From: Bacilli bacterium
GTDB taxonomy: Bacteria > Bacillota_I > Bacilli_A > RFN20 > CAG-826
Assembly (NCBI GenBank): GCA_024408495.1
Contig: JAKSUY010000002.1
Coordinates: 127 to 64,126 of the forward strand
Direction of reading: 5' to 3'
Length of the DNA stretch: 64,000 bases
A program made the position numbers and the translations under genes. Shown here piece after piece: positions 32,910 to 38,091 of this stretch. Numbering within the stretch: the stretch's first letter is position 1; each line of letters begins with the position of its first letter. Below the pieces are notes generated by a model. That model ran no database searches and was not told the origin of the DNA. It saw nothing but the letters and a program-made list of their open reading frames with translations.

Positions 32910-33767
32910 TTATTTACTTATAGTAATTTTTACAATTTCAGGGTTACAATTGACGCGAAGCGGGAACATCGCGGAATATCCAAGGCCTCGAGAAATGACT
33001 AAATCCGTACTGTTTCTATGGTAAATTCCGCCCATATATTCGCCTTCTTCTAAAGCAATTGATGAAGGCGTCCAATTACCAATTTTAAATTGGCCTCCAT
33101 GAGTGTGACCACTAACCACTAAATCGAAATTATAATTATCCGCAATCTTTTTGAAATTTTCTGGGCGATGGCTAAGTAAGATATTAAAATCATCTTTATT
33201 AAATGCTTTAGTCATTTCATCCAAGGATGCTAAAGTTGCTTCCTCTCTACTTTTAAACGAAGCACCACCTCTAGTTTTAAAACGAGCGTCTTCTAATCCA
33301 TATATATGAAAATGTTCATTGATATCAATGTGATCATCTTTAATATAGGTAACGCCTTCTTCATGCATTTTATCTTGTAAACCTTGCCAGTTAGGAGCGT
33401 ACTCTTCATGATTACCAGTTACAAAATAAGAATGCTTGCTAATGCTATTACCAGCTTTAAATATTTCATTGATATCGTCTAGTGAGTTAGTGTAACTATC
33501 AATTAAATCACCGGTATAGAAAATATAATCAACTGGATTTTGTTCTTTTAAGATATCAATCATATTGCCATTACTGAAATTTAGTGAGCGGTGATGGTAA
33601 TCACTAATTACTAAGCAAGTGAATGTATCAATATTCTTACTAGTCTTAAATTCATAAGAAACAATATCAAGCTTATCACTACTAACAGCGCAAAAAATTA
33701 AGCCTACTAAACAAAAAGTAAGCACAACATAACTAACGATTCTAATAACACGTTTAAAGATATACAT
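32910..33767 (-). CDS. Membrane-anchored metallophosphoesterase (YkuE-like)
   Basis: Calcineurin-like motifs ISDYHH, TGDLID, GNHE and GHTHGGQ, with an N-terminal TM helix. Confidence 0.85.
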   Translation of the reverse strand: MYIFKRVIRIVSYVVLTFCLVGLIFCAVSSDKLDIVSYEFKTSKNIDTFTCLVISDYHHRSLNFSNGNMIDILKEQNPVDYIFYTGDLIDSYTNSLDDINEIFKAGNSISKHSYFVTGNHEEYAPNWQGLQDKMHEEGVTYIKDDHIDINEHFHIYGLEDARFKTRGGASFKSREEATLASLDEMTKAFNKDDFNILLSHRPENFKKIADNYNFDLVVSGHTHGGQFKIGNWTPSSIALEEGEYMGGIYHRNSTDLVISRGLGYSAMFPLRVNCNPEIVKITISK

Positions 33768-33830
33768 CCTAATTATTATATAAGAACAAATAAACGATAG
33801 TTTGAATATTTAGTTGCATTGATAATAATG

Positions 33831-33839
33831 TGCTATAAT
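33831..33839 (+). promoter_or_regulatory. Extended -10 promoter (TGcTATAAT) for the antitoxin RNA
   Basis: TGCTATAAT lies about 16 nt upstream of the first repeat unit. Confidence 0.5.
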
Positions 33840-33854
33840 GATTGTGCAATCGAA

Positions 33855-33942
33855 AGGTTGCAACATAAAGGGAATGGGTGAGCCCTACCAAACAGCCTAG
33901 ATTGTAACATAAAGGGAATGGGTGAGCCCTACCAAACAGCCC
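33855..33942 (+). ncRNA. Type III antitoxin RNA (ToxI/antiQ-like): two tandem 44-nt repeats
   Basis: AG(G/A)TTG(C/T)AACATAAAGGGAATGGGTGAGCCCTACCAAACAGCC(T/C) occurs twice head-to-tail (3 mismatches). A promoter precedes it, and a terminator and a ToxN/AbiQ-like ORF follow it. Confidence 0.8.
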
Positions 33943-33953
33943 GATTTTAACAG

Positions 33954-33980
33954 ATATGGTTCCCAAAACCATATTTTTTT
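33954..33980 (+). terminator. Rho-independent terminator between the antitoxin repeats and the toxin ORF
   Basis: ATATGGTT-cccaa-AACCATAT stem-loop followed by a T run (T7). This is the arrangement that sets the antitoxin:toxin ratio in toxIN loci. Confidence 0.8.
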
Positions 33981-33999
33981 ATTGTATAATGGGGTAACT

Positions 34000-34571
34000 A
34001 TGTACAAGATTTATGAAATAAACCCTACCTATATTAAGTATCTAAAGCGGTTTTAAAAGCATGTTTATCTACCAGATGAAGATAGTTCTTTTGGGCGAAA
34101 ATATGTTGGAATAGTATTAGAAATTAATAATTTTAAGTATTTTGCCCCGTTAACTTCTAGCATTTGGAAAAAAAATTAAATGAATCCAATGAATTTATAT
34201 ATGTTTTAGATCAAAATGGATGCAAAAAATTAAAACGAAATTTTACCGATATTATTATCCGTAATAATAACAACCAACCTGTTGCGGCGGTGAAATTAAA
34301 TGATATGGTTCCTATTCCTAACAACCTTATCGGTTTAATTGCGGTTGCTAACATAAAAGAATTACAGCTATCAAGTGAAAGCAAAGATCGTAAATACGGA
34401 TCGTTACTAGAATTAGAACTAGAATATATTAATCGTCCAGCGGTTGCGACAAAAATTAAAGAGAAGGCGTTGGATTATTATTCAAATTATAAAATAAATG
34501 AAAAATACAAAAGAGTTTGCTTAGATTTTAAACTCCTAGAACAAAAGGCGAATGACTATAAAATAAATTAA
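34000..34571 (+). pseudogene. ToxN/AbiQ-family type III toxin endoribonuclease, disrupted
   Basis: MYKIYEINPTYIKYLKRF*KHVYLPDEDSSFGRKYVGIVLEINNFKYFAPLTSS resembles the ToxN/AbiQ N-terminus recalled from memory (MKFY..S.YI.YLK.FD...GIVLEI....Y.APLTS). There is an in-frame TAA at 34054..34056. A 1-nt frame change at the A8 tract 34168..34175 joins to ORF 34164..34571. Confidence 0.8.
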
Positions 34572-36358
34572 TTACGTTTATTCGCGAATTGCGAATTATA
34601 TAAGTCGGCGTATAAGCCGCCCTTAGCGAGTAATTGATCATGATTACCACATTCAAGGACATCGCCATCTTTCATAACGATAATCATATCCGCGTTCTTA
34701 ATGGTTGATAAACGGTGAGCGATGACAAATGAGGTTCGACCTTTCATTAATTTATCCATCGCATCTTGAATTAATAATTCAGTACGAGTATCAACGCTAC
34801 TAGTAGCTTCATCCAAGATTAGCATTGGCGCATTTTGTACCATGGCTCTTGCGATGGTAAGTAATTGTTTTTGACCACTAGATAATCCGCTATCTTCTTT
34901 AAGCATCTTATCGTAACCACCAGCCTGTTTAATAAATTCATCGCAGTGTGTGGCTTTACACGCTTCATATACTTCTTCATCGGTTGCATCTCGACGAGAG
35001 AACTTTAAGTTCTCCATGAAGGTACCTTCAAATAACCAAGTATCTTGTAACACCATGCCGAATAGACTACGAACATAACTACGATTCATAGATGTAGTAT
35101 CAACGCCTTCAATCGTAATCTTACCACCATTGACCTCGTAGAATCTCATAAGGAGGTTAACCATCGTAGTTTTACCTGCACCAGTAGGACCAACAATCGC
35201 AATCTTTTGACCGCTCTTCGCGACTTGTGAGAAGTCATGAATGATGACTCGATCTTTAGTATAACCAAAGCGAATATGATCAAAAGCTACATTACCTTCA
35301 ACTTTCTCGAGTTTAGTCGTCTTACTAGATTCATCGGGTTGATTATTCTCTTCAAGCATAGAGAAGACACGAGAGGCTGCGGCTAAAGCTTGTTGGAAAG
35401 TACCTAATAGTTGAGCAATGTTAGTAAGTGGCGAAATTAATTGTTCACCATAAGTAACCGCTGCAACGATGGTTGCCACTCTTTCAGGATCGCCACCTTG
35501 TTGAACCGCCATATAACCACCGATTAAACAAATGAAAGCAAACATTAAGTTAGCAAAGAAGCTAGTAATTGGAATCATTAAACCAGAAAGCGCATCTGCT
35601 TTGAAGGTGTACTTTTCAAGTTTTAAGTTAGTGTTAGCGAACTTATCCTTAAAGCGTTTAGTAGCACCAAATGACTTCACAATATAGTAAGCAGTGTAAC
35701 TTTCTTCAGCTAATGAAGAGAGGTTACCAGTTAATTCTTGACGTTGACCAAAGGCTTTTTGTGATTTCTTACCAACGATAGATAAAACAATTAAGATTAC
35801 TGGTAAAGTACATAAGACAACTAAGCCTAATTTCCAGTCAAAAACGAATAAGATAATAACTGAACCAACCACTGTAATAGTTGCAGCAATAAAGCTTGAT
35901 AAGGTTAAGTTAAGAGTTTGACCAATTGTATCAACATCGTTAGTGACATAGCTAAGAACATCACCAATATTACGTGTGTCGAAATAATTAAGCGGTAATT
36001 TATTAATCTTGACCGCCATTCTTTGACGTAGTTCACGGCTAGTCTCAGTTGTGACACCGGTAATTACATACACTTGAATATATTCAAAGAGGAACCCACA
36101 GAAATATAATGCTAAGGCAATACCTGCGTATTTCCAAATCTCACCATAAGTGAAATCAAGATGTTGGGTTTCGTAACTAGATAGTAAAGTTGAAATCTCT
36201 TTAATGACAATTGGGCTGAAGATTCTAAATAATGCACCAATTGCGCCTAAACATAAGGCAATAATAATAGCTACTCTATGAGGAGCTAAGCATTTCGCTA
36301 ATTTTCTGAACGAGGATTCGCCTTTACGTTCATAAATGTTTTTAATTGTCGTTTCCAT
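34568..36358 (-). CDS. ABC exporter, fused permease/ATPase subunit (heterodimer partner 2)
   Basis: Six TM helices, Walker A GPTGAGKTT, signature LSSGQKQ and Walker B ILDEATS. Confidence 0.9.
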   Translation of the reverse strand: METTIKNIYERKGESSFRKLAKCLAPHRVAIIIALCLGAIGALFRIFSPIVIKEISTLLSSYETQHLDFTYGEIWKYAGIALALYFCGFLFEYIQVYVITGVTTETSRELRQRMAVKINKLPLNYFDTRNIGDVLSYVTNDVDTIGQTLNLTLSSFIAATITVVGSVIILFVFDWKLGLVVLCTLPVILIVLSIVGKKSQKAFGQRQELTGNLSSLAEESYTAYYIVKSFGATKRFKDKFANTNLKLEKYTFKADALSGLMIPITSFFANLMFAFICLIGGYMAVQQGGDPERVATIVAAVTYGEQLISPLTNIAQLLGTFQQALAAASRVFSMLEENNQPDESSKTTKLEKVEGNVAFDHIRFGYTKDRVIIHDFSQVAKSGQKIAIVGPTGAGKTTMVNLLMRFYEVNGGKITIEGVDTTSMNRSYVRSLFGMVLQDTWLFEGTFMENLKFSRRDATDEEVYEACKATHCDEFIKQAGGYDKMLKEDSGLSSGQKQLLTIARAMVQNAPMLILDEATSSVDTRTELLIQDAMDKLMKGRTSFVIAHRLSTIKNADMIIVMKDGDVLECGNHDQLLAKGGLYADLYNSQFANKRN

Positions 36359-38091
36359 TATTCTAACTCCTCCTTACTTAATTGCGATAAGGCAATCTCT
36401 TTATAAACTTGGCAGTTTTGTAAGAGCTCCTTATGGGTACCTTTGCCCACCATATTGCCATTATCTAAGACGATGATTTGATCTGCGTCCATAATGGTAC
36501 CAACACGTTGCGCAACGATAATATTAGTAATACCTTTTAAGCGGCTCTTAATTTCGCCTCTTAAAACTTTATCGGTTTTATAGTCAAGCGCTGAGAAGGA
36601 ATCATCAAAGATGAAAATCTCAGGTTTAGTAATAAGCGCTCGAGCAATACTTAATCTTTGTCTTTGACCACCCGAAACATTCTTACCACCTTGGGAGATT
36701 TCGTATTCAACACCATTTTCGAGTTTACTTACAAATTCCGTTGATTGAGAAATAGAAAGAGCTTCTTCTAAATCTTCTTTAGTGGCATCGGGTTTACCTA
36801 AGCACACGTTATTCTTTAAAGTATCGTGGAATAGATATGGCTTTTGTGGAACATAACCGAATTTCTTGAATAAGACATCGAGTTGATATTGTTTAACATT
36901 GATTCCATCCACTAAAACTTCACCACTTGAAGTATCATAGAATCTTTGGATTAAGTTTAAGACTGTAGTCTTACCCGCACCGGTTGCACCGATGAAGGCT
37001 AAGGTTTGACCTTTATTAACTTTAAAACTAATATTCTTTAAACTTGGAGCGCCACCACCTGGATAGGTGAAAGATACATCTTTAAATTCAATTGTACCAA
37101 CTTCGGTGAAACGTGGAGTTTCTTTAGCATCTTTAATGCTTGGCTCAGTTTCAATAATTTCGTTAATTCTTTTTGCACAAATGGTAGAACGAGGAATCAT
37201 AACGAAGATAATAACCATCAATACAAATCCGGTTAATAATAAGCTGGCGAATTGAGTAATAGTTGCAGTTTGAGCAAAATTAATTAAACCATCTTTAATA
37301 AGATAAGAGCTAACCACAGAGATCATAACTAACATTAAACCAACGACTAATTGGATACCTGGAGTTAAGAAGCCAAGCGCGCGGTTTGCGAAACGGTCAT
37401 CTTTAGTTAAACTGTTATTAACATTATTAAATTTCTCTTCTTGGTAACCTTCAGCGTTATAGGCTCTAACTACGCGTAAACCTTCAAGGCTTTCTTTAGT
37501 GACTAAGTTAACTTTATCAATCCGACTTTGCATGGATTGGAAACGTGGTTGTGCTAAATGGACCACGAAGTAGATAATAACACTTAAAAGTACAATTGCA
37601 GCAATAATGACTACTAAGAATTGCCATCTTGCTCCAATTAATAATAAGAAGACAAATGCTCCAACCGCAAGTAACGGACCATAGAGCATAAATCTAAAGA
37701 TTAATACGTATGTGTTACTTACGTTAGTGATATCGTTGGTTGTTCTAGTAATTAAGCTAGAAATAGAGAATCCATTCATTTCTGCTGAAGAGAAAGAGGA
37801 GATTTTGCTATATAATTCATAGCGAACTCTCGCCATCATCTTAGAAGTGACTTTAGAAGCTAATACGCAAATGCCAACAGAAGTGATACCACTCGCTAAC
37901 GCTACAAAAATCATCTTAATTGAGGTTAAAATAATATCTTCCATCACAATTGGTGGGGTTTGAATCATGCTGATGATTGAACCCATCATGTAAGGTAGCA
38001 AGAAGTCAAAAACAACTTGAACACAAGTTAATACCACTATTAGAGCGACTAACCACCAATAGCTTTTTAAACGTTTTAGGAACTTTAACAT
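36358..38091 (-). CDS. ABC exporter, fused permease/ATPase subunit (heterodimer partner 1)
   Basis: Walker A GATGAGKTT, signature VSGGQRQR and Walker B IFDDSFS. The Walker B lacks the catalytic Glu, which suggests a degenerate site as in LmrCD/EfrCD-type heterodimers. The stop overlaps the partner's start. Confidence 0.9.
   Translation of the reverse strand: MLKFLKRLKSYWWLVALIVVLTCVQVVFDFLLPYMMGSIISMIQTPPIVMEDIILTSIKMIFVALASGITSVGICVLASKVTSKMMARVRYELYSKISSFSSAEMNGFSISSLITRTTNDITNVSNTYVLIFRFMLYGPLLAVGAFVFLLLIGARWQFLVVIIAAIVLLSVIIYFVVHLAQPRFQSMQSRIDKVNLVTKESLEGLRVVRAYNAEGYQEEKFNNVNNSLTKDDRFANRALGFLTPGIQLVVGLMLVMISVVSSYLIKDGLINFAQTATITQFASLLLTGFVLMVIIFVMIPRSTICAKRINEIIETEPSIKDAKETPRFTEVGTIEFKDVSFTYPGGGAPSLKNISFKVNKGQTLAFIGATGAGKTTVLNLIQRFYDTSSGEVLVDGINVKQYQLDVLFKKFGYVPQKPYLFHDTLKNNVCLGKPDATKEDLEEALSISQSTEFVSKLENGVEYEISQGGKNVSGGQRQRLSIARALITKPEIFIFDDSFSALDYKTDKVLRGEIKSRLKGITNIIVAQRVGTIMDADQIIVLDNGNMVGKGTHKELLQNCQVYKEIALSQLSKEELE

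What the first reader, a model, noticed from the sequence alone, without database searches (positions are those of the whole stretch)
33831..34571. Type III (ToxIN/AbiQ-like) toxin-antitoxin locus with an intact RNA antitoxin cassette but a doubly disrupted toxin gene
Seen in sequence: a TGcTATAAT promoter is followed by two head-to-tail 44-nt repeats (33855..33898 and 33899..33942, 3 mismatches). A strong terminator hairpin with a T run follows at 33954..33980. An ORF starts at 34000 whose N-terminus (MYKIYEINPTYIKYLKRF...GIVLEINNFKYFAPLTS) matches my recollection of ToxN/AbiQ. This promoter-repeats-terminator-toxin layout is the hallmark of type III TA/abortive-infection loci. The toxin frame carries an in-frame TAA at codon 19 (34054) and a frame change in an A8 run (34168..34175). 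The antitoxin repeats, promoter and terminator look undamaged. Inference: the toxin was inactivated while the antitoxin RNA was retained, perhaps as an anti-addiction element or simply through recent decay. The A8 tract could alternatively be a reversible slippage switch, but the nonsense codon argues for true decay. The 44-nt unit is longer than the 34-36 nt I recall for ToxI/antiQ, so this may be a distinct subfamily.
Basis: partly seen in the sequence, partly recalled or inferred. Interest (0 to 1): 0.6.

Follow-up and report, generated by a model that had tools for sequence, protein, structure and literature searches.

The report
Decayed ToxIN toxin-antitoxin cassette
This is an ordinary phage-defence toxin/RNA-antidote cassette of the ToxIN/AbiQ family that was inserted between two housekeeping genes of a small gut bacterium, and its toxin gene is now broken by a stop codon and a one-base deletion while the RNA antidote part is still intact.

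Summary
There is a TGcTATAAT promoter, two 44-nt repeats with 3 mismatches plus a partial third, a hairpin with a T-run, and a ToxN-like ORF with TAA at codon 19 and a frame change at an A8 run.

Both toxin pieces hit Pfam ToxN_toxin (5e-14 and 6e-16; read through 4e-31) and PADLOC AbiQ. An intact homologue at 77% identity has CAA where the window has TAA and one more base at the A-run.

Two genomes of the same genus have the flanking genes 22 bp apart or overlapping, so about 780 bp is an insertion.

The repeats belong to a small RNA subfamily (six lineages, units of 43-47 nt). Covariation in it supports an H-type pseudoknot. No Rfam family matches.

A 44-nt unit present in 2.2 copies lies inside the published toxIN range (31-62 nt, 1.9-5.6 copies).

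The best reading is recent, ordinary decay. The toxin must die first in any toxin-antitoxin locus, so an intact antitoxin needs no special explanation.

The scan has noted several such decayed ToxIN loci in other genomes. This is a new member of a known kind, of low to moderate interest.

The parts
33787..34564 (+). Inserted cassette (approximate limits), lying between the metallophosphoesterase start (33767, minus strand) and the ABC transporter stop (34568, minus strand)
   Evidence: In G006, a genome of the same genus, the two flanking genes are 22 bp apart. In G002 they overlap. Homology to the G006 empty site resumes at AATTAATTACG, about 34565. No significant target-site duplication was found.
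33831..33839 (+). Extended -10 promoter TGcTATAAT of the antitoxin/toxin operon
   Evidence: Read. A TGnTA(T/A)AAT element stands upstream of the first repeat in all relatives of the subfamily (L015-L019, L096). Activity was not tested.
33846..33861 (+). Predicted 5' hairpin of the primary transcript (GCAAUC GAAA GGUUGC)
   Evidence: Folds at -7.7 kcal/mol. L096 has a hairpin at the same place. Its role is inferred only.
33855..33898 (+). Antitoxin repeat unit 1. Helix H1 pairs 33869-33872 with 33883-33886. The pseudoknot helix pairs 33876-33879 with 33895-33898.
   Evidence: TRF. Covariation on alignment A4 gives 97.7% of cells paired, with 0 of 500 shuffles as good. The nested alternative gives only 54.5%.
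33899..33942 (+). Antitoxin repeat unit 2. Helix H1 pairs 33913-33916 with 33927-33930. The pseudoknot helix pairs 33920-33923 with 33939-33942.
   Evidence: Same as unit 1. The core is identical to unit 1, and the 3 differences lie in the linker and at a G.U/G-C pseudoknot position.
33943..33953 (+). Partial third unit (linker only, GATTTTAACAG)
   Evidence: TRF counts 2.2 copies. The same tail is present in L014.
33952..33980 (+). Intrinsic terminator: 10-bp stem, 5-nt loop, T7 run
   Evidence: -8.5 kcal/mol. Relatives have a hairpin with T-run at the same place but with different stem sequences.
33983..33990 (+). Second extended -10-like element TGTATAAT, 9 nt before the toxin ATG
   Evidence: A perfect TATAAT lies 8-11 nt before the ATG only in this subfamily (5 of 98 unique upstream regions), and most of those lack a Shine-Dalgarno sequence. 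Function is inferred.
34000..34056 (+). Toxin gene, codons 1-18, then the premature TAA (34054-34056)
   Evidence: The intact homologue P0002/L014 has CAA (Gln) at this codon.
34057..34179 (+). Toxin gene, codons 20-58, in the original frame. It holds the active-site stretch FAPLTSSIWKK. The A8 run is at 34168-34175. The frame then ends at TAA 34177-34179.
   Evidence: Pfam profile positions 2-52. L014 has AAGAAAACG (9 nt) where the window has AAAAAAAA (8 nt), a one-base loss.
34164..34571 (+). C-terminal 135 codons of the toxin in the -1 frame (called as a separate protein, P0003, in public annotation)
   Evidence: Pfam ToxN_toxin profile positions 54-159, E 6e-16. P0003 is on record in NCBI nr from a single contig.

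Best explanation
This is a ToxIN/AbiQ-family type III toxin-antitoxin (abortive-infection) cassette of about 780 bp.

How it got there: it was acquired horizontally and inserted into the short spacer between an ABC-transporter gene and a metallophosphoesterase gene of a small (about 1.3 Mb, 34% G+C) uncultured gut Bacilli-type bacterium.

How the intact form works: one extended -10 promoter transcribes two pseudoknot-forming 44-nt RNA units. Most transcripts stop at the hairpin terminator. Read-through, or possibly a second -10 element just before the ATG, gives toxin mRNA. The ToxN endoribonuclease cuts the repeat RNA into units, and each unit binds and blocks a toxin molecule.

What has happened in this genome: the toxin is dead. 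A CAA-to-TAA nonsense change at codon 19 leaves an 18-residue peptide. A one-base loss in an A-run at codon 58/59 also splits the catalytic N-terminal part from the RNA-binding C-terminal part. The promoter, both RNA units and the terminator are unchanged, so a repeat RNA of roughly 130-140 nt is probably still made. It is probably not processed, because processing needs the toxin.

The state is a recent, ordinary stage of decay. In any toxin-antitoxin pair the toxin has to be lost first, because loss of the antitoxin first is lethal.

Shown here: family membership, both lesions relative to an intact homologue, the insertion, and RNA covariation. Inferred: transcription, lack of processing, and the timing of decay.
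For: - Family: Pfam ToxN_toxin hits at 5e-14, 6e-16 and 4e-31, and PADLOC AbiQ at 2e-28. The nearest solved structures are ToxN 7D8O, 2XD0 and 4ATO, and AbiQ 4GLK.
- Lesions: the intact homologue at 77% identity (P0002, L014) has CAA at codon 19 and one more base at the A-run, and its alignment to the window is otherwise gapless over 190 codons.
- Selection: dN is 0.15 while synonymous sites are saturated (pS 0.74), and there is no third lesion in 570 nt. Purifying selection therefore acted for nearly all of the gene's history.
- RNA conservation: the antitoxin core differs from L014 by 1 base while synonymous sites next door are saturated.
- RNA structure: the pseudoknot model has 97.7% of cells paired, and 4 pairs show changes on both sides. 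The nested alternative has 54.5%.
- Insertion: empty sites are present in G006 and G002.
- Stop codon: TAA is the normal stop here, used by 706 of 926 long ORFs.
- Assembly quality: long ORFs cover 86% of the genome, and 22 of 41 A8/T8 runs lie in intact ORFs.
- No intact copy seen: no intact protein closer than 77% exists among 5.8 billion clusters.
- Published criteria: the layout matches the criteria and ranges for toxIN loci in PMC3401426.
- Active site: the active-site residues lie in the N-terminal part, according to PMC8860590.
Against: - The genome is a metagenome-assembled draft (72 contigs, 85% complete, 6% contamination), so either lesion could be an assembly error or a variant of only part of the population.
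- No transcript data are available.
- Only one close intact relative is available, and its contig breaks inside the repeat array.
Confidence: 0.8

Rival explanations
1. The toxin gene is intact in the organism. On this view the TAA and/or the A8 length are assembly or consensus artefacts, or alleles of a minority of the population captured by the metagenome assembly.
For: The genome is a draft metagenome-assembled genome with 6% estimated contamination. Homopolymer length is a classic error site. Reads could not be checked.
Against: - Two independent lesions of different kinds lie in one 570-nt gene.
- A substitution to TAA is not a typical assembly error.
- Long ORFs cover 86% of the genome, and 22 of 41 A8/T8 runs sit inside intact ORFs, so the assembly is not prone to frameshifts.
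- No intact near-identical protein is on record anywhere.
Confidence: 0.12
2. The antitoxin array is kept by selection after toxin loss. It would act as an anti-addiction or immunity RNA that neutralises related incoming ToxN toxins carried by plasmids or phages.
For: The promoter, both RNA cores and the terminator are untouched while the toxin has two lesions. Toxin-dead loci with intact repeats recur: L018 here, and several earlier notes of this scan.
Against: - Decay looks too recent for neutral damage to the 150-nt RNA region to be expected, so its intactness carries no signal.
- Toxin-first loss is the only viable order of decay.
- Unit release needs a ToxN that recognises these repeats, and type III antitoxins are reported to be highly specific (PMC5086642).
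- The RNA subfamily is rare: 2 of 151 family genomes searched have it.
Confidence: 0.1
3. The locus is a switch or recoding device. Slippage at the A8 run, during transcription or replication, would restore the frame, so the toxin would be made conditionally.
For: The C-terminal part lies in the -1 frame, which gain of one A would restore to the length of the homologue. A8 runs are rare in this genome: 41 compared with 603 A7/T7 runs.
Against: The TAA at codon 19 lies upstream of the run and ends translation after 18 residues whatever happens at the run. TAA is the main stop codon of this genome. No in-frame ATG, GTG or TTG lies between the TAA and the run. The intact homologue has no homopolymer there (AAGAAAACG).
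Confidence: 0.03

Closest known systems
ToxIN of Pectobacterium atrosepticum pECA1039, E. coli and Bacillus thuringiensis (PDB 2XD0/2XDD, 7D8O, 4ATO)
   Same: - The operon layout is the same: promoter, tandem RNA repeats, intrinsic terminator, toxin.
- The toxin matches Pfam ToxN_toxin.
- The motifs GRKYVG (Arg33, Gly37) and APLTS (Thr52, Ser53) are conserved.
- The RNA unit forms a pseudoknot flanked by A-rich single-stranded linkers.
   Different: - Similarity to the solved ToxN sequences is weak (E about 1e-10, significant only over the N-terminal 76-78 residues).
- The unit is 44 nt in 2.2 copies, against 36 nt x 5.5 or 34 nt x 2.9.
- No Rfam family matches the RNA.
- The position of catalytic Lys55 is Ser in the phmmer alignment, and an invariant Lys lies two residues later.
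- The toxin gene here is broken.
AbiQ/antiQ of Lactococcus lactis pSRQ900 (PDB 4GLK)
   Same: The best PADLOC model is AbiQ (2e-28), and the alignment to the PDB chain covers the full length (query 4-187). It comes from a Gram-positive host and has 2-3 repeats.
   Different: antiQ has 35 nt x 2.8 copies (PMC5086642). Identity is low. No phage-resistance phenotype is known for this subfamily.
CptIN of Eubacterium rectale / Coprococcus catus
   Same: The repeat geometry is alike: cptIN units are 40-48 nt in 1.9-3.4 copies, always chromosomal (PMC3401426 Table 2).
   Different: The toxin matches only the ToxN/AbiQ models, and no other family appears in Pfam or PADLOC at E <= 1. It is therefore not a CptN.
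Other decayed ToxIN loci noted earlier by this scan in gut bacteria
   Same: The pattern is the same: the toxin is killed by a stop codon, frameshift or deletion while the promoter, repeats and terminator survive.
   Different: Those are on different genomes and have different repeat families (34-38 nt). No look-alike sequence was found among earlier windows.

Membership tests
toxIN family of type III TA systems (Blower et al. 2012 criteria) | Toxin homologous to ToxN/AbiQ (Pfam PF13958) | tested here: met
   Both pieces score above the gathering cut-off (53.2 and 59.4 bits against 25). The read-through protein scores 108.7 bits, E 4e-31. PADLOC AbiQ gives 2e-28.
toxIN family of type III TA systems (Blower et al. 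2012 criteria) | [quoted passage not shown] | tested here: met
   44 nt in 2.2 copies at 92% matches. The range is from PMC3401426 Table 2.
toxIN family of type III TA systems (Blower et al. 2012 criteria) | Rho-independent terminator between the repeats and the toxin gene | tested here: met
   A 10-bp hairpin (-8.5 kcal/mol) followed by T7 at 33952-33980. The strict consensus scan missed it because it has only 2 G-C pairs. Homologous loci have a hairpin with T-run at the same place. Termination itself was not measured.
toxIN family of type III TA systems (Blower et al. 2012 criteria) | Each RNA unit folds as a pseudoknot | tested here: met
   The H-type pseudoknot has 97.7% of cells paired across 11 units from 6 lineages, and 0 of 500 shuffles do as well. 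Three H1 pairs and one pseudoknot pair show changes on both sides. The nested alternative gives 54.5%. Caveat: the alignment was made by hand and leans towards the model.
toxIN family of type III TA systems (Blower et al. 2012 criteria) | Functional endoribonuclease toxin that is neutralised by, and processes, its own repeat RNA | not testable with these tools
   As assembled, the ORF cannot give a full-length toxin. Activity and neutralisation would need expression of the intact homologue with and without the repeats.
Rfam antitoxin RNA families (ToxI and others) | Match to a curated covariance model | tested here: not met
   No Rfam family matched at E <= 10 in 33000-35000 on either strand.
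cptIN / tenpIN families | Toxin belongs to the CptN or TenpN lineage | tested here: not met
   For the read-through protein only ToxN_toxin (Pfam) and AbiQ (PADLOC) matched at E <= 1; the C-terminal piece alone also gave one weak sub-threshold hit, AbfS_sensor (E 0.08, 13.2 bits against a cut-off of 26). All PDB sequence matches are ToxN or AbiQ.

The most novel reading that the evidence does not exclude
Two linked readings are not excluded by the evidence.

(1) In this small ToxIN subfamily the toxin may not be expressed by terminator read-through. It may instead come from a second, conserved -10 promoter placed 8-11 nt before the ATG. That would give a leaderless or near-leaderless toxin mRNA and would uncouple toxin transcription from antitoxin transcription.

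(2) The surviving repeat array of the window may be kept as a stand-alone immunity RNA against related incoming ToxN toxins.
Probability: 0.15. Interest if true: 0.5.

Novelty: new member of a known kind. Interest (0 to 1): 0.25.

Why it matters
On its own this is an ordinary pseudogenised defence module, so it matters little. It is useful in three modest ways:
- It gives a clean example of a roughly 780-bp type III TA cassette dropped into a 22-bp intergenic spacer, with an empty site in sister genomes and no recombinase or target duplication.
- It defines a small, uncatalogued antitoxin RNA subfamily from rumen and gut bacteria with low G+C and small genomes. Units are 43-47 nt, there are two per locus, and covariation supports a pseudoknot. 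This could be added to RNA family databases.
- It adds one more case to the repeated observation in this scan that decaying ToxIN loci pass through a toxin-dead, antitoxin-intact stage. A survey across genomes could test this for or against anti-addiction.

Tried and rejected
The reality of the two lesions in the reads therefore stays untested.
- Rfam search of 33000-35000 at E <= 10 found nothing.
- Covariance model R1 built from the subfamily found no further members in 100 fetched loci or in 151 genomes of the family, apart from G000 and G002. One weak hit inside the ABC gene (window 36400-36435, E 0.015) is taken as chance.
- Search for the genome of the intact homologue P0002 among 400 genomes of the family failed. 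Its public record could not be fetched.
- Viral contigs hold no relative of the subfamily. Annotated plasmids and phages hold only relatives below 30% identity.
- Target-site duplication at the insertion borders was rejected: the best local match was equalled by 81 of 500 shuffles.
- A nested (non-pseudoknot) fold, which ViennaRNA prefers for a single unit, was rejected by covariation at 54.5% paired.
- TAA reassignment was rejected: TAA ends 706 of 926 long ORFs.
- The automatic MAFFT alignment of the units (A3) put helix H1 out of register, so it was replaced by a hand alignment padded with N (A4).
- A first count of broken toxins was inflated by spurious N-terminal extensions on two query proteins. 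It was redone with trimmed queries.

Full report
**Observation**

The sequence shows each feature at the stated place.
- TGcTATAAT lies at 33831-33839.
- Two head-to-tail 44-nt units lie at 33855-33898 and 33899-33942. They differ at three positions, and a partial third copy follows.
- Tandem Repeats Finder gives period 44, 2.2 copies, 92% matches and score 160.
- A hairpin with a 10-bp stem and a T7 run lies at 33952-33980 and folds at -8.5 kcal/mol. The strict consensus scan did not list it, because the stem has only two G-C pairs.
- An ORF starts at ATG 34000, meets TAA at 34054-34056 (codon 19), runs on in the same frame to an A8 tract (34168-34175), and stops at 34177.
- The rest of the protein is read in the -1 frame as a 135-codon ORF, 34164-34571.

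**Identity of the toxin**

- The N-terminal piece hits Pfam ToxN_toxin (PF13958) at 5e-14 over profile positions 2-52.
- The C-terminal piece hits it at 6e-16 over positions 54-159.
- The read-through protein, with X at the stop, hits it at 4e-31 over positions 2-159.
- PADLOC gives AbiQ at 2e-28.
- For the read-through protein no other family appears at E <= 1; the C-terminal piece alone also gave one weak sub-threshold hit, AbfS_sensor (E 0.08, 13.2 bits against a cut-off of 26).
- The nearest solved structures by sequence are E. coli ToxN 7D8O, Pectobacterium ToxN 2XD0, B. thuringiensis ToxN 4ATO and AbiQ 4GLK, at E 3e-10 to 4e-7.

According to PMC8860590 the active site of ToxN is formed by Lys33, Thr52, Ser53 and Lys55, and Gly37 and Ala49-Leu51 shape it. 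The window keeps Arg33, Gly37 and APLTS (49-53). All of these lie between the TAA and the frameshift. Neither fragment could therefore act alone, and translation ends after 18 residues anyway.

**The lesions are real differences from an intact relative**

A search of 5.8 billion protein clusters found one close intact homologue, P0002 (210 aa, 77% identity). The next relatives are at 45% and 40% identity. No intact protein closer than 77% was found. The only record of the window's own allele is the 135-aa fragment P0003.

The DNA of P0002 (locus L014) aligns with the window without gaps over 190 codons, apart from one base.
- L014 reads TTC CAA GAA where the window reads TTT TAA AAG.
- L014 reads TGG AAG AAA ACG TTA where the window reads TGG AAAAAAAA TTA.

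One lesion is therefore a C-to-T nonsense change. The other is the loss of one base in or beside an A-run.

Between the two genes dN is 0.15 while synonymous sites are saturated (pS 0.74). The ratio is about 0.05-0.13. There is no third lesion in 570 nt. The gene was therefore under purifying selection for nearly all of its history, and its inactivation is recent.

**Could the lesions be artefacts?**

That is the main open point.

Indirect evidence favours real lesions:
- The genome is a draft of 72 contigs, 1.28 Mb and 33.8% G+C.
- ORFs of 150 aa or more cover 86% of it.
- TAA ends 706 of 926 such ORFs.
- 22 of 41 A8/T8 runs lie inside intact long ORFs.

The assembly is therefore not prone to frameshifts, and TAA is a true stop here.

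**Insertion**

The flanking genes are a calcineurin-like metallophosphoesterase (32910-33767, minus strand) and an ABC transporter (34568-36358, minus strand).

In G006, a genome of the same genus whose phosphoesterase is 80% identical, the two genes are 22 bp apart. In G002 they overlap by one base. The window has 800 bp there, so about 780 bp (roughly 33787-34564) was inserted.

- Homology to the empty site resumes at AATTAATTACG. The last two codons and the stop of the toxin are therefore made of flank-like sequence.
- No target duplication is detectable.
- No recombinase gene lies in the insert.
- The right-hand neighbour of the intact homologue in L014 is a different gene with no Pfam hit.
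- In G002 the related cassette sits at yet another site.

The module therefore moves between sites.

**The RNA**

The upstream regions of the closest toxin relatives all show the same plan:
- an extended -10 element;
- two units of 43-47 nt;
- a hairpin with a T-run;
- a TATAAT element;
- the ATG.

Six lineages share a recognisable unit: the window, L014, L015/L016/L018, L017, L019 and L096. L096 is G002, recorded as Bacillales bacterium UBA1719.

A hand alignment (A4) supports an H-type pseudoknot.
- Helix H1 pairs AGGG with CCCU in the window, GAGG with CCUC in L096, GUGG with CCAC in L017 and CUAG with CUAG in L019.
- The second helix pairs the hairpin loop with a downstream segment: GGGU with GCCY, GGAU with GUCC, and GGAC with GUCC.
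- 97.7% of cells are paired.
- Four of the eight pairs show changes on both sides.
- No shuffle out of 500 does as well, and all slid registers are far worse.

The nested fold that ViennaRNA prefers for one unit has only 54.5% of cells paired.

The A-rich third loop and the A-rich linkers (UAAAA(A)U in relatives, CAUAAAG in the window) resemble the A-rich cleavage sites of ToxN and AbiQ described in PMC5086642. The cleavage site here is not known.

No Rfam family matches. A covariance model of the unit found no further members in 100 loci, and only G000 and G002 among 151 genomes of the family.

The unit length is inside the published toxIN range of 31-62 nt and 1.9-5.6 copies (PMC3401426 Table 2). 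This is an uncatalogued RNA sequence subfamily, not a new kind of system.

Between the window and L014 the core differs by one base while neighbouring synonymous sites are saturated. This shows long-term constraint on the RNA.

**How it works, and what is left**

By analogy with ToxIN and AbiQ (PMC5086642, PMC8860590), the intact cassette works as follows:
- It makes an excess of repeat RNA.
- A little toxin mRNA is also made.
- The toxin cuts the RNA into units.
- Each unit blocks a toxin until phage infection disturbs the balance.

In the window only the RNA half can still work. It is probably transcribed and terminated at 33980, and it probably stays uncut. These last steps are inference.

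Retention of the RNA needs no special selection, for two reasons. The toxin must be lost first in any viable path of decay. The decay is also too recent for neutral damage to a 150-nt region to be expected.

Among 163 related loci three others have broken toxins (L018, L044, L149). L018 keeps intact repeats beside a GAA-to-TAA change at codon 9, while its sister locus L015 is intact.

This scan has noted several other decayed ToxIN loci with surviving antitoxin parts in other genomes. None is similar in sequence to this one.

**Verdict**

This is a new member of a known kind, in a decayed state.

Two points may deserve a second look:
- the conserved -10 element just before a toxin ATG that lacks a Shine-Dalgarno sequence;
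- the mosaic toxin alleles of the rumen clade.

Noticed in passing
window 33983-33999; L014 70-87; L015-L019 just upstream of the toxin ATG: A perfect TATAAT lies 8-11 nt before the toxin start codon in this subfamily only (5 of 98 unique ToxN upstream regions). L014 and L015-L019 have no Shine-Dalgarno sequence there. This may be a second promoter giving a leaderless toxin mRNA. Many other ToxN loci have AAGGAG/GGAGG at this place instead.
   Followed up: partly
L015, L016, L017, L018, L019 (rumen metagenome and Logan contigs): The toxins of these loci share nearly identical N- and C-termini. L015, L017 and L018 share the promoter region, and L016, L017 and L019 share the terminator. Their centres are only 59-65% identical, and their antitoxin units have different helix sequences. 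The pattern looks like mosaic alleles in which the specificity parts of toxin and RNA change together.
   Followed up: partly
L018 1474-2001; L044; L149: Three further broken ToxN genes were found among 163 related loci. L018 has GAA-to-TAA at codon 9 with intact repeats, while its sister locus L015 is intact. L044 has a nonsense codon in the EINxFKYF motif. L149 has a frameshift plus a stop.
   Followed up: partly
L020-L023, L025, L032, L034-L037, L039, L040, L043, L044, L046, L047, L051, L098 (contigs whose named members are Treponema; most are unnamed metagenome contigs): A large clade of ToxN loci shows no obvious tandem repeat in the 260 nt upstream. It has only one conserved element (TATAAGGAxATCGCGCCTTTxAxCGCGA...TTATACGG), and a terminator whose T-run runs straight into the start codon.
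   Followed up: no
whole genome G000: Homopolymer runs drop sharply at length 8: there are 603 A7/T7 runs but only 41 A8/T8 and 6 A9/T9 in 1.28 Mb. This suggests selection against slippage-prone tracts in this A+T-rich small genome.
   Followed up: no
window 34150-34175 (residues 51-58 of the toxin): In the phmmer alignment to ToxN, the position of catalytic Lys55 is Ser in the window, in P0002 and in P0005 (APLTSSIWKK). A Lys two residues after the aligned Trp is invariant in the subfamily. The catalytic lysine may have moved.
   Followed up: no
window 33846-33861; L096 about 1355-1372: A stable hairpin lies at the predicted 5' end of the antitoxin transcript in two lineages. It may protect the RNA end.
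   Followed up: no
window 36400-36435 (minus strand): A weak match to the antitoxin unit model lies inside the ABC transporter gene (22.4 bits, E 0.015). It is taken as chance.
   Followed up: no
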